The notes beneath the pieces are model-generated. The model did no database searches. It saw only the letters and a program-made list of their open reading frames with translations, and was not told the DNA's origin. A stretch of DNA of 59,780 bases, the filler included, from Jimgerdemannia flammicorona (Eukaryota), in the NCBI GenBank assembly GCA_003990765.1. It is 3 parts of 3 records of this genome, joined end to end, with 100 filler letters (N's around TTAATTAATTAA, not from the genome) between each part and the next. Parts side by side here need not be neighbours in the genome. Positions count along the whole stretch, not along the records: positions 39,923 to 59,780 come from RBNJ01001830.1; 2 more parts are not named here. One strand, given 5' to 3'. This document shows positions 55,677-57,757 of the stretch, piece after piece; position 1 is the first letter of the stretch; each line of letters opens with the position of its first letter. Position numbers and translations under genes: made by a program.

Positions 55677-57757
55677 TGTAAGAGGGTTGCTTTTTAGGGT
55701 AACTGTTACATAGTTCTGGAAGGGTTTTCTGGAGGTTCTAGATATTCTGGAAGACTGTTTTCTTATGGTCAAGATCAATATCATATGGAGTACATCCTCT
55801 ACGCTTATTGATTTCAAGATCAGGTTGATGTCTCAACCAAAGTCCCTTTTTTTTGGACTAGTTCTGGATGTTCAGGATTTTCCATATTTCAGGAAGTTCA
55901 AGAAACTAAGACCAGCTTAGTTGAATTGGTATATTGCTGCAGATAATACCCAATTAGGAAATTTCGTGATGGGGTTAGGAGTAGGACCTAACAAGGAGTG
56001 GGAGCGGATTTACTTAAGAGTAGTTTGTGGGTTATGGAATAGGTTTATTTGCTATTCATGATATTGCTATACTAGGAGTATTTGTGTAAAGGAGTATTAT
56101 GGGGAAGTATTCAGGAATATTCATGTGTATTCGAGTCTGTTCAAGTCTGAGATTCTGAGGTCTGGGGGAGGGGGTATTTATACTAGTGAGGGGCTATCTG
56201 GACTATGCTGAATATGGTTGTAGCACTAAGTGCCTTGCTGAGTCGGAATGCAGTCATGTAGTACAAGTGTGATCTGATATGTCAAGAGATCATCTGACTG
56301 CTGAGTCAGTTCACAGTCACATCGTACAAAGCTAATCTAACTATACTATAACTGCTAGGCTATTTATGGGTTTAGGCACTGTCTGGGTAGTCTTCAATGA
56401 CATCACCATCAATGATATCATCTCTGATAAAGTAGTTGTCTAGGAAGAGTGGTTCGCGGATTACTTCTCCTTGTTTGCTGAGGTAGTAATACATTGGGAC
56501 TTCATCTCCGTCCCACAGAATAGCATTGTCTGTCTCGTAGGCTAGATAAGGTGTTGGTGGGCGAAGGATGGGTGTATTGTCTTCGCTTTCGTCGGATTCA
56601 CTGTCTGCATACCTTCTATAGGTTATAGCACTATGAGTTGCAGGATTGTAGTAAGCTGGTGGCTGTGGTTCATATTGCTTGTACTCAGGTGGTAGAGTGG
56701 TTGGTTCAATCTCGAGAGTTGTCTGGAGGTACAGGTTGTGTTCTCCGGTCTCTTCATTGTAGTTGAAGTAATTAGGAGTGAACGTGGGTTAGTATTCATG
56801 CCAGTGGTCATTGTCCCAATAAGTCTCGTATACAGTTATGAACTGTTGCAAGTTCATCAGTAAGTTTGGCGGTGTGATCAGGGTTGGCAGAGATCCTTGG
56901 CTAGAGGTCATGTCGGCATCAGAGGGATCATTGTCTTCTGCTTCATCTTCGTCGAAGTGGATTATATCATAGACGTCCTTCATGGCGTATTTGACTTGAG
57001 GCATTTGCAGGATATGGTTATCAGGGTGCGGGAAGGTTCTGTCTGTGGTCTGGACGTATTCGAGGTACTTGTGGTTGAGTTCTTGTATCATGTCATCGAT
57101 TTGGCCATAGGACAGGGTAGCAACCATTTCACTGGTAGTGACTCAGAGACAGGGAATAAAGGTGTTGTACTCATAGAAGAGTTCTCGATGTTTGTGGGTG
57201 ATGAGCTTCTGGTGTTGAGACATCTGGGTAATGTCTGTATCATGGTGGTGTTCGACCATGTCTTCCAGGAGGCAGCCAATCTGGTAGTAGCTTGAGATTT
57301 GTCCAATTCGGTGGGCCTTACTAAGCATGTTCAGGGCGTTCCATTGGGCTTCCACGAAGTAGAGGGGTGCCAGGCTATGGATATTCATGAGGGGCAGAGG
57401 GGGTGTGGCTCGGTTGACAATGGCATTCCAAATGTCAGTGTGGATATGGTTGTAGATCTCAGTGGTCATATTTGTGTATTTGGAAGTTGTGGTTGTTGTT
57501 TGTTTTGGTTCTCTGATTCAATGCATCTCGGTGCTCGGTATATATGCATTTGGTCCTGATTGGTAAGATTCCGTTTGTGTAAATCTTGTGTTCCATGACT
57601 TCATATTGACTCAGCTTTGTTCACTGTGACTTTGGTTTGACTCAGCTTCATGATCAAGCAGGTGATTTCCAGATTTGTTCAGAGGTCACATGTAATTTCG
57701 GTGGCTTGTTCAGAGGGTGACATGTAATTTCAGTGGCTTGGAGGTTGTGCACTTACA
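55677..57757 (-). mobile_element. 3' LTR (2081 bp) of a chromovirus
   Basis: TGTAAG...CTTACA termini; polypurine tract agaaggggagagt directly upstream on the minus strand (57758-57770); matches the solo LTR at 9603-11674. Confidence 0.95.
56372..57469 (-). pseudogene. LTR-internal ORF, copy 2 (365 codons, two internal stops)
   Basis: Single frame MTTEIYNHI...DYPDSA*, broken only by TGA at 57143 and TAA at 56789. Confidence 0.8.

What the first reader, a model, noticed from the sequence alone, without database searches (positions are those of the whole stretch)
56372..57469. Protein-coding gene inside a 2-kb chromovirus LTR
Seen: the LTR has defined termini, a PPT and a second TSD-flanked solo copy. 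It carries a sense-strand 365-codon frame with a helical-looking N-terminal ~140 aa and an acidic Y/P/D-rich tail. Both copies span exactly 1098 nt from ATG to stop although the LTRs differ in length (2072 vs 2081 bp), and many differences look synonymous. Known: LTRs are usually non-coding; retroviral nef and MMTV sag are exceptions. Inference: an accessory gene (for example anti-silencing or targeting) that solo LTRs would also spread. Both copies share the TGA (57143) and TAA (56789), so these are parallel C-to-T decay, an inherited defect, or a real split/readthrough.
Basis: partly seen in the sequence, partly recalled or inferred. Interest (0 to 1): 0.85.

Follow-up and report, generated by a model that had tools for sequence, protein, structure and literature searches.

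The report
Protein gene inside a retrotransposon LTR
The 2-kb terminal repeat of a fungal chromodomain retrotransposon carries a 365-codon gene for an orphan acidic protein; both copies here are dead, but relatives elsewhere have it open, which is rare outside a few retroviruses.

Summary
Two LTR copies (55677-57757, next to a polypurine tract and a chromodomain integrase; 9603-11674, solo, with a GTTGA duplication) each carry an indel-free 1098-nt frame in the element's sense. All 8 indel events between them lie in the other 983 nt.

The frame is coding. None of 2000 dinucleotide shuffles has as few stops. Differences by codon position are 45/24/80. A deamination-aware dN/dS-like ratio is 0.57, against 0.8-2.3 in the non-ORF LTR. 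Two metagenome proteins match: one (88% identical) runs from M1 across codon 109 and reads Arg there; the other (64%) is an intact 247-residue ORF that reads Gln at codon 227. In four public runs most contigs read CGA where the window has TGA. Both stops are therefore decay, and both window copies are pseudogenes.

The protein has no family, no confident fold and no other relative among 1.84 billion cluster representatives standing for about 15 billion proteins. It looks like a helical head with a strongly acidic, aromatic and proline-rich tail. By motif position it lies upstream of the LTR's TATAAA box, in U3, as MMTV sag does.

Its function was not tested. My best guess is an element-specific regulator. 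No RNA data were found, and a family-wide dN/dS was not possible.

The parts
55677..57757 (-). LTR copy A (2081 bp, TG...CA). It is the 3' LTR of a minus-strand Ty3/gypsy chromovirus whose 5' part lies beyond the window end.
   Evidence: 87% identical over its full length to 9603-11674; alignment and termini; PPT and integrase directly upstream.
56372..57469 (-). The 365-codon frame (ATG 57469, terminal TAA 56374-56372). In this copy it is a pseudogene with two in-frame stops.
   Evidence: Translation; 0 gap columns against copy B; codon-position bias 45/24/80; ratio 0.57; matches to P0002 and P0003.
57143..57145 (-). In-frame TGA, codon 109, shared with copy B. It is a decayed CpG codon: other copies read CGA (Arg).
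   Evidence: table 3: at 57145 the runs read G on the + strand (depth 160.8 of 267.5, 20.8 of 20.8, 5.29 of 7.4, 25.1 of 45.2). One search gives TGA to CGA. P0003 has R at this position.
56789..56791 (-). In-frame TAA, codon 227, shared with copy B. The 64%-identical relative reads Gln here.
   Evidence: The P0002 alignment shows Q opposite the X. Constraint persists downstream.
57125..57127 (-). Internal ATG (Met115), where the intact metagenome ORF P0002 begins. It is a possible alternative start for a 251-codon product.
   Evidence: P0002 residue 1 aligns to 57127.
57675..57740 (-). 32-nt tandem duplication (2.1 copies) near the 5' end of the LTR. It may be an enhancer-like element; that is inference only.
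57539..57544 (-). TATATA motif 70 nt upstream of the ATG, in the least conserved part of the LTR (copy B has TAAATA). It is a candidate ORF-specific promoter; that is inference only.
   Evidence: Motif map and sliding identity of 72-80% with indels.
56166..56365 (-). Best-conserved block of the LTR (91-96% between A and B). It starts just after the ORF stop and ends in TATAAA (56182-56177). It is probably the element's core promoter, which would place the ORF in U3.
   Evidence: Sliding identity and motif positions; alignment. No transcript data.
56044..56049 (-). AATAAA, a candidate polyadenylation signal (end of R).
   Evidence: Motif only.
57759..57771 (-). Polypurine tract AAGAAGGGGAGAG, one base before the LTR.
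   Evidence: The same junction appears as a loose end in run X8 (table 7).
58198..59490 (-). Integrase region with several in-frame stops: Integrase_H2C2, rve, SH3_Tf2-1 and Chromo domains.
   Evidence: Pfam E-values 3e-20, 7e-07, 1.5e-17 and 6.6e-16 on the frame starting at 59778.
9603..11674 (-). LTR copy B, a solo LTR (2072 bp) flanked by the 5-bp duplication GTTGA (9598-9602 and 11675-11679).
10281..11378 (-). The same 1098-nt frame in copy B, with 8 in-frame stops (codons 20, 109, 129, 171, 208, 209, 227, 333).

Best explanation
The frame is a genuine accessory protein gene of this chromovirus family, carried wholly inside its long terminal repeat. Both copies in the window are dead.

Shown:
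- The gene is 365 codons, in the sense of gag-pol.
- It evolved without indels and with an excess of synonymous change while part of the LTR.
- It is open in relatives elsewhere.
- The two shared stops are C-to-T decay of CGA and CAA. The LTRs have lost most of their CpGs.

Inferred from motif positions only:
- The gene lies in U3, between the LTR's 5' end and a conserved block that ends in a TATAAA box, with AATAAA about 130 nt further on.
- It would therefore be copied into every new LTR through the 3' end of the genomic RNA.
- It would be translated either from a subgenomic or spliced RNA, or from a promoter of its own in the first 290 nt of the LTR (TATATA 70 nt before the ATG, and no upstream ATG after about 57524).

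Inferred from composition only (about 25-30% likely): the product has a helical head of about 140 residues and a disordered, strongly acidic tail rich in aromatic residues and proline. It would act as an element-specific regulator, a transactivator or anti-silencing factor that binds through the head and recruits host machinery through the tail.
For: Anatomy:
- LTR pair, termini, PPT, TSD and chromodomain integrase.

Coding signal:
- 0 of 2000 dinucleotide shuffles have 2 or fewer stops.
- All 8 indel events between A and B fall in the 983 non-ORF nt and none in the 1098 ORF nt. By my arithmetic the chance of that is about 0.002 if events are placed uniformly.
- Differences by codon position are 45/24/80, and Nei-Gojobori dN/dS is 0.156 against 0.76 and 1.02 in the other two frames.
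- With only C-to-T and G-to-A changes allowed, the ratio is 0.57 (76 of 216 synonymous sites hit against 68 of 339 non-synonymous; Fisher 1e-4). The non-ORF LTR parts give 0.8-2.3.
- 5 of 20000 permutations that keep base and CpG class reach the observed synonymous count.
- All three segments behave alike: 0.50, 0.66, 0.51.
- Base composition by codon position resembles the element's integrase gene.

Independent copies:
- P0003 (128 aa, 88% identical) is open from M1 across codon 109.
- P0002 (247 aa, 64% identical, 82% positives, two in-frame 2-residue gaps) is intact from Met115 to the shared C-terminus.
- In one search, 16 of the 16 listed contig pieces that lie wholly inside the ORF have no gaps. 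5 of the 7 wholly outside have gaps, as do 2 of the 9 that straddle an ORF end. All 12 listed indels lie at 55846-56137. Only 32 of 4745 pieces and 12 of 27 indels were shown.

Decay:
- CpG observed/expected is 0.42 in A and 0.19 in B, against 1.08 in the neighbouring genes.
- 64 of 98 CpG sites differ between A and B, against 80 of 457 other C/G sites.

Protein:
- Tail residues 144-365 have D+E 44, K+R 10 and pI 4.05.
- Helices are predicted only in residues 3-143.
Against: - No intact full-length copy was seen. The window copies have 2 and 8 stops, and the two database proteins are partial (residues 1-128 and 115-364).
- The selection signal rests on one DNA pair. Once the transition bias is allowed for it is moderate (0.57, not 0.16).
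- The 21 best-supported places where the runs differ from copy A split 10 synonymous to 11 non-synonymous. That is what neutral decay of A would give.
- The TAA at codon 227 is not at a CpG and is shared by A and B. 56791 is not among the 40 listed variant places (443 more not shown), so the TAA may be common in this subfamily.
- P0002 starts at Met115, six codons after the position of the TGA. A two-ORF form may therefore exist.
- The U3 assignment and both expression routes rest on motifs. The upstream TATATA lies in the least conserved stretch of the LTR.
- Nothing supports any particular function: no Pfam, PDB or Atlas match, and pLDDT of 31.5 and 51.3.
Confidence: 0.6

Rival explanations
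1. Same gene, different place in the transcript. The upstream TATATA (57544-57539) is the element's real promoter, so the ORF lies in a very long R/U5 leader. It would be the first cistron of the genomic RNA, like the extra ORF before gag in some plant elements, and not a U3 gene.
For: TATATA lies 70 nt before the ATG. The roughly 40-nt A/C-rich stretch before the ATG has no upstream ATG. A tandem 32-nt repeat lies further upstream.
Against: This TATA sits in the least conserved part of the LTR, at 72-80% identity with indels. The TATAAA downstream of the ORF ends the best-conserved block, at 91-96%. An R of about 1.5 kb would be very unusual; that is general knowledge, not tested here.
Confidence: 0.2
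2. Two products. The TGA at codon 109 is a working feature in part of the family. It would separate a 108-residue head from a 251-residue protein that starts at Met115, made by reinitiation, or the two would be joined by readthrough.
For: A and B both have the TGA. A sizeable minority of contig depth in two runs keeps the window's letter at 57145 (about 40% in X1 and 45% in X8). P0002 starts exactly at Met115, which has A at -3 and G at +4.
Against: P0003 is continuous across codon 109 with Arg, and most depth in all four runs reads CGA. CGA to TGA is the expected CpG decay: 64 of 98 CpG sites differ between A and B. If stops fall at random among the 29 susceptible codons, the chance that both of A's stops are among B's 8 is 0.069, which is not small.
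Confidence: 0.12
3. Passenger sequence. The LTR once captured a piece of a host or foreign gene and carries it with no role for the element. The coding signature is left over.
For: The protein has no link to any retroelement family. LTRs can pick up foreign sequence; that is general knowledge.
Against: No donor exists among 1.84 billion cluster representatives standing for about 15 billion proteins; the only relatives are the two LTR-like fragments. The excess of synonymous change is between two LTR copies, so it arose after the sequence was in the LTR. A 64%-identical lineage still has it open.
Confidence: 0.07
4. Not a gene. The open frame is a by-product of the A-rich, G-poor strand composition and recent common ancestry.
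For: Both window copies are interrupted. No expression evidence exists. The register-matched antisense frame also has few stops (5 in A).
Against: 0 of 2000 dinucleotide shuffles reach 2 or fewer stops. There is codon-position bias and a permutation result of 5 in 20000. The frame is indel-free while its flanks are not. Diverged relatives have it open.
Confidence: 0.05

Closest known systems
MMTV sag (superantigen gene in the U3 of the mouse mammary tumor virus LTR)
   Same: A complete sense ORF sits inside the LTR, which makes the LTR unusually long and places the gene in both LTRs and in solo LTRs. By motif position the ORF here also lies in U3. The only 'LTR ORF' literature my searches found is MMTV's (search listing and abstract starts only, for example PMC2118998).
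   Different: No sequence relationship: Pfam found nothing at E up to 1. Sag is a membrane glycoprotein of a vertebrate betaretrovirus (recalled). This protein is acidic, has no family, and belongs to a Ty3/gypsy chromovirus in a fungus-like genome.
HIV/SIV nef and foamy-virus tas/bet (3' accessory genes that overlap U3)
   Same: These are accessory genes at the 3' end of the genomic RNA that reach into U3. Foamy Tas is a transactivator with an acidic activation region and its own internal promoter, which is the working model proposed here. All of this is recalled, not from a call.
   Different: Those genes only overlap the LTR, whereas this one lies wholly inside it. There is no homology. A transactivator function is a guess here.
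Additional ORFs (aORFs) of plant LTR retrotransposons, and captured ORFs of bdelloid rotifer LTR elements
   Same: They are extra, often orphan, ORFs beside gag-pol in LTR retrotransposons, and their function is mostly unknown. Sources: PMC7264820 (abstract start and passages) and PMC5408684 (abstract start).
   Different: As I recall, those ORFs lie in the internal region, between the 5' LTR and gag or between pol and the 3' LTR; the calls did not show this. My text searches of the two papers for an ORF within, inside or overlapping the LTR found nothing. Here the ORF is inside the LTR itself.
Fungal chromoviruses (Ty3/gypsy with a chromodomain integrase, for example crapaud of Podospora, PMC10787394)
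   Same: Integrase zinc-binding, core, SH3_Tf2-1 and chromo domains, TG...CA LTRs, a PPT and a 5-bp TSD. In crapaud the 5' half of the LTR is the variable part (abstract start).
   Different: The passages I read from that paper describe only gag and pol ORFs. No ORF in an LTR is mentioned.

Membership tests
Chromovirus (Ty3/gypsy LTR retrotransposon with a chromodomain integrase) | Integrase with zinc-binding and core domains followed by a C-terminal chromodomain | tested here: met
   Pfam: Integrase_H2C2 3.2e-20, rve 7.4e-07 (29.8 bits, below its 32.6 cut-off), SH3_Tf2-1 1.5e-17, Chromo 6.6e-16, on the minus-strand frame from 59778 read with X at stops.
Chromovirus (Ty3/gypsy LTR retrotransposon with a chromodomain integrase) | Direct terminal repeats with TG...CA ends, a polypurine tract before the 3' LTR and a short target-site duplication | tested here: met
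   TG...CA in both copies. PPT at 57759-57771 and a 5-bp GTTGA duplication around the solo copy. The 5' LTR and PBS of the full element lie outside the window.
Chromovirus (Ty3/gypsy LTR retrotransposon with a chromodomain integrase) | Gag, protease, RT and RNase H in Ty3/gypsy order | not testable with these tools
   The window ends at 59780, inside the element, and no genome is held.
LTR-borne retroviral accessory gene of the MMTV sag type | Complete sense ORF inside the LTR | tested here: met
   The ORF occupies LTR positions 289-1386 of 2081 on the pol strand, in both copies.
LTR-borne retroviral accessory gene of the MMTV sag type | ORF lies in U3, upstream of the transcription start | tested here: inconclusive
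   TATAAA at 56182-56177 and AATAAA at 56049-56044 lie downstream of the ORF, in or after the best-conserved block. There is a second TATA-like motif upstream of the ORF, and no transcript ends are known (no RNA holder listed).
LTR-borne retroviral accessory gene of the MMTV sag type | Sequence or fold relationship to Sag or Nef | tested here: not met
   No Pfam family at E up to 1 or 10. No PDB sequence match below E 0.28. The models are too poor for a fold comparison.
Internal additional ORFs (aORFs) of LTR retrotransposons | Extra ORF located in the internal region, between an LTR and gag or pol | tested here: not met
   The ORF lies inside the repeat itself and is present in a solo LTR that has no internal region.
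Acidic-activation-domain transactivators (working analogy only) | Acidic region rich in bulky hydrophobic and aromatic residues, joined to a targeting domain | tested here: inconclusive
   The composition fits: residues 144-365 have D+E 44, K+R 10, Y+F+W 31, P 23, and the head is predicted helical at low confidence. Activity and DNA binding cannot be tested with these tools.

The most novel reading that the evidence does not exclude
The LTR is a self-contained gene. It has its own promoter in the first 290 nt, the 365-codon ORF, and the LTR's polyadenylation signal. Every LTR, including the solo LTRs left after recombination, would then be a dispersed expression unit for a family-specific transactivator or anti-silencing protein. 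Dead elements would keep supplying in trans a factor that helps the living ones. I know of no LTR retrotransposon described this way.
Probability: 0.12. Interest if true: 0.85.

Novelty: new variant of a known kind. Interest (0 to 1): 0.62.

Why it matters
LTRs of retrotransposons are treated as non-coding control regions, and annotation pipelines mask them. A conserved protein gene wholly inside an LTR is known to me only from a few retroviruses. Six literature searches found only MMTV.

If this gene is confirmed, three things follow:
- Non-retroviral LTR elements can also use the U3 slot for an accessory gene.
- Solo LTRs can be gene copies.
- An orphan, fast-evolving acidic protein becomes a candidate for how a heavily CpG-depleted (probably methylated) element family in a soil fungus fights or manages silencing.

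It would also give a search rule: look for unusually long LTRs with an indel-free frame in other genomes.

Tried and rejected
- Whole genome: none is held for this window.
- DNA of relatives: two scans of metagenome contigs found nothing. The alignment query used a single pattern and the single-protein query used six. One scan of genome contigs and one of viral contigs were also blank. I therefore had no DNA for P0002 or P0003.
- Protein searches: the near, shorter and longer length classes and the exhaustive representative search gave only P0002, P0003 and P0004. P0004 is a 68-residue-repeat protein that matches one 38-residue stretch six times at 32-34% identity. I treat it as spurious.
- Families and structures: Pfam found nothing. 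PDB by sequence had a best E of 0.28-0.43. The ESM Atlas holds P0002 with pLDDT 0.39 and no usable neighbour. AlphaFold2 on the 3-row alignment gave pLDDT 31.5, and on P0003 alone 51.3. Foldseek against PDB with that model had a best E of 0.9, only generic helical bundles.
- Expression: no RNA holder was listed for the stretch, and all four runs laid were contigs. Nothing can be said either way.
- Depth is about twice as high over the 3' third of the LTR as over the ORF. The tool warns that contig depth cannot rank parts, so I draw nothing from it.
- PPxY-type motifs (PPEY, PPAY) occur in the tails of A and B but are not kept in P0002. I dropped them as a functional lead.
- The cysteines at 66 and 107 are Arg in P0003, and residue 66 is His in B. 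No zinc site.
- tblastn of the three proteins against the window found only copies A and B.
- Earlier findings of this scan: nothing for this genome, this sequence or these words. The 8 notes shown concern unrelated elements.
- Papers: PMC6673714, PMC10787394 and PMC12037069 turned up on phrase matches but do not describe ORFs inside LTRs (passages read).
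Full report
**1. What is there**

The finding's coordinates are right, but the frame reads on the minus strand. That is the sense strand of the element. Directly upstream on minus lies a degenerate integrase with Integrase_H2C2, rve, SH3_Tf2-1 and Chromo domains, so the element is a Ty3/gypsy chromovirus. Its 5' part runs off the window end.

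The repeat 55677-57757 (2081 bp) recurs at 9603-11674 (2072 bp) at 87% identity. Both copies start with TG and end with CA. Copy A is preceded by the polypurine tract AAGAAGGGGAGAG plus one base. Copy B is a solo LTR flanked by GTTGA on both sides.

The frame runs from ATG 57469 to TAA 56372 in A, and from 11378 to 10281 in B. It is 1098 nt in both. A has in-frame stops at codon 109 (TGA) and codon 227 (TAA). B has both of these plus six more.

**2. Is it more than chance, and is it coding?**

- None of 2000 dinucleotide-preserving shuffles of copy A has 2 or fewer stops in any sense frame. The best frame averages 16.9 stops, with a minimum of 8.
- The A/B alignment has 8 indel events (27 gap columns). 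All lie in the 983 nt outside the frame and none in the 1098 nt inside it. By my arithmetic that has a chance of about 0.002 under uniform placement.
- The 149 differences in the frame split 45/24/80 by codon position. Nei-Gojobori dN/dS is 0.156, against 0.76 and 1.02 in the other two frames.

That value flatters the case, because 140 of the 149 differences are transitions. I therefore recomputed allowing only C-to-T and G-to-A changes.

- 76 of 216 possible synonymous changes are seen, against 68 of 339 non-synonymous ones. The ratio is 0.57 (Fisher 1e-4).
- Arbitrary frames in the non-ORF parts of the same LTR give 0.8-2.3.
- A permutation that keeps base and CpG class reaches the observed synonymous count in 5 of 20000 trials.
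- The three segments separated by the stops behave alike (0.50, 0.66, 0.51). The part after the TAA is individually significant (p 0.005).
- Base composition by codon position resembles that of the element's integrase gene.

So the constraint is real but moderate. That is what one expects when divergence among active lineages is overlaid by neutral decay after insertion.

**3. Copies elsewhere**

Searches of 5.8 billion clusters in three length classes, and of 1.84 billion representatives standing for about 15 billion proteins, found two relatives. Both are from metagenome contigs of about 1 kb.

- P0003 (128 aa, 88% identical) starts at the same Met1, runs through codon 109 with Arg, and ends at residue 128.
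- P0002 (247 aa, 64% identical, 82% positives, two in-frame 2-residue gaps) starts at the equivalent of Met115. It reads Gln where A and B have TAA, and it ends in the shared C-terminal YPDS motif plus one residue.
- A third hit, P0004, is a repeat protein that matches one short stretch. I discard it.

Nineteen public runs from 10 studies hold words of the stretch. They are soil metagenomes and a coded 'organism A'. I laid four of them at 80% likeness, and 3738, 436, 61 and 501 contig pieces fell on the LTR.

- At 57145 most depth reads G on the + strand: 160.8 of 267.5, 20.8 of 20.8, 5.29 of 7.4 and 25.1 of 45.2. That turns the TGA into CGA.
- All 12 listed indels lie at 55846-56137, outside the frame. 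15 more were not shown.
- Among the 32 listed pieces (4713 not shown), all 16 wholly inside the frame are gap-free. 5 of the 7 wholly outside have gaps, as do 2 of the 9 that straddle an end of the frame.
- The 21 best-supported single-letter differences inside the frame are 10 synonymous and 11 non-synonymous. That looks like neutral decay of copy A itself.

**4. The stops**

The LTRs are strongly CpG-depleted: observed/expected is 0.42 in A and 0.19 in B, against 1.08 in the neighbouring genes. 64 of 98 CpG sites differ between A and B, against 80 of 457 other C/G sites.

Codon 109 is a CpG codon (CGA), so parallel decay in both copies is unremarkable.

Codon 227 (CAA to TAA) is not at a CpG. 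If stops fall at random among the 29 susceptible codons, the chance that both of A's stops are among B's 8 is 0.069. Place 56791 is not among the 40 variant places listed (443 not shown), so I cannot say how common the TAA is. An inherited TAA in a subfamily, or some readthrough, stays open. The constraint downstream of the TAA argues against an old truncation.

**5. Layout of the LTR (inference from motifs)**

Reading 5' to 3' on the element strand:
- the TG end;
- a 32-nt tandem duplication (57740-57675);
- a poorly conserved stretch with TATATA (57544-57539);
- the ORF (57469-56372);
- the best-conserved 200 nt of the LTR (56365-56166, 91-96%), ending in TATAAA (56182-56177);
- AATAAA (56049-56044);
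- the CA end.

The simplest reading is U3 of about 1.6 kb containing the ORF, R of about 130 nt, and U5 of about 350 nt. The gene would then sit at the 3' end of the genomic RNA, after pol and the PPT, as MMTV sag does. It would need a subgenomic or spliced RNA, or its own promoter, to be translated.

The alternative is that the upstream TATA is the element's promoter and the ORF is a leader cistron. That cannot be excluded without transcript ends. No RNA holder was listed.

**6. The protein**

It has no Pfam family, no PDB relative and no Atlas neighbour. AlphaFold2 gave pLDDT 31.5 for the full length and 51.3 for the head alone. Foldseek returned only generic helical bundles at E of 0.9 or worse.

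What can be said is compositional. Predicted helices are confined to residues 3-143. Residues 144-365 have 44 acidic against 10 basic residues, 31 aromatic residues and 23 prolines, with pI 4.05.

That is the make-up of acidic activation or interaction regions. My best guess is therefore an element-specific regulator, a transactivator or anti-silencing factor. I put it at 25-30% and mark it as inference. PPxY motifs and cysteines that looked suggestive are not conserved.

**7. Comparison with what is known**

It works like the LTR-borne or U3-overlapping accessory genes of complex retroviruses: MMTV sag, nef, and foamy tas/bet. The last two are recalled, not from a call. It is not a member of any of those families, because no sequence or fold relationship was found.

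It differs from the additional ORFs reviewed for plant LTR retrotransposons and for bdelloid elements. As I recall, those lie in the internal region; my text searches of those two papers found no mention of an ORF within or overlapping an LTR (PMC7264820, PMC5408684).

Six full-text searches for ORFs in LTRs or in U3 returned only MMTV papers and irrelevant phrase matches. The library lacks most subscription journals, so an older description elsewhere cannot be excluded.

The host appears to be a fungus. A neighbouring MFS transporter exon has its nearest Atlas clusters in fungi.

**8. Verdict**

- The reading 'protein-coding gene inside the LTR' is supported (about 0.8 for coding, about 0.6 for the U3 placement).
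- Both window copies are pseudogenes.
- Function is unknown, with a low-confidence regulator model.
- I rate it a new variant of a known kind, with interest 0.62.

The main gaps are a family-wide alignment from the host genome and any transcript or peptide evidence.

Noticed in passing
window 59614-59780: A 33-nt tandem repeat, 5.1 copies at 94% match, runs to the window end inside the element's internal region, upstream of the integrase. In one frame it reads as a repeated GLKTGDV peptide. It may be an insertion or expansion within pol.
   Followed up: no
window 53764-55641 (+): Fragments of a reverse transcriptase lie on the opposite strand directly beside LTR copy A (RVT_1 at 54009-54359, E 7e-08). 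This looks like a broken non-LTR retroelement abutting the LTR, or one the chromovirus inserted into.
   Followed up: partly
window 13570-19255: A second retroelement lies on the minus strand. An RVT_1 fragment is at 16532-16915 (E 2.7e-06, 27.7 bits, below its 29.6 cut-off). Direct repeats are at 13838-14079 and 19014-19255 (90%) and at 13570-13803 and 14085-14318 (93%). It holds several long stop-free frames. I did not classify it.
   Followed up: no
window 26659-28630 (+) versus the LTRs: The neighbouring MFS-transporter gene region has CpG observed/expected of 1.08, while the two LTRs have 0.42 and 0.19. This is repeat-specific CpG loss, as expected from methylation aimed at transposons. 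The two LTR copies differ mostly by C/T and G/A changes.
   Followed up: partly
window 20001-22000 and 40001-48000: These are very AT-rich blocks (GC 0.24 and 0.29-0.33) between regions of GC 0.44-0.54. I did not examine them.
   Followed up: no
window 55677-56376 versus 56377-57757, in public runs: Summed contig depth is about two to three times higher over the 3' third of the LTR (promoter block, R, U5) than over the ORF and the 5' part, in all four runs (table 2). This might mean that related LTR families share the 3' part but have another U3. The tool warns that such depth cannot rank parts.
   Followed up: no
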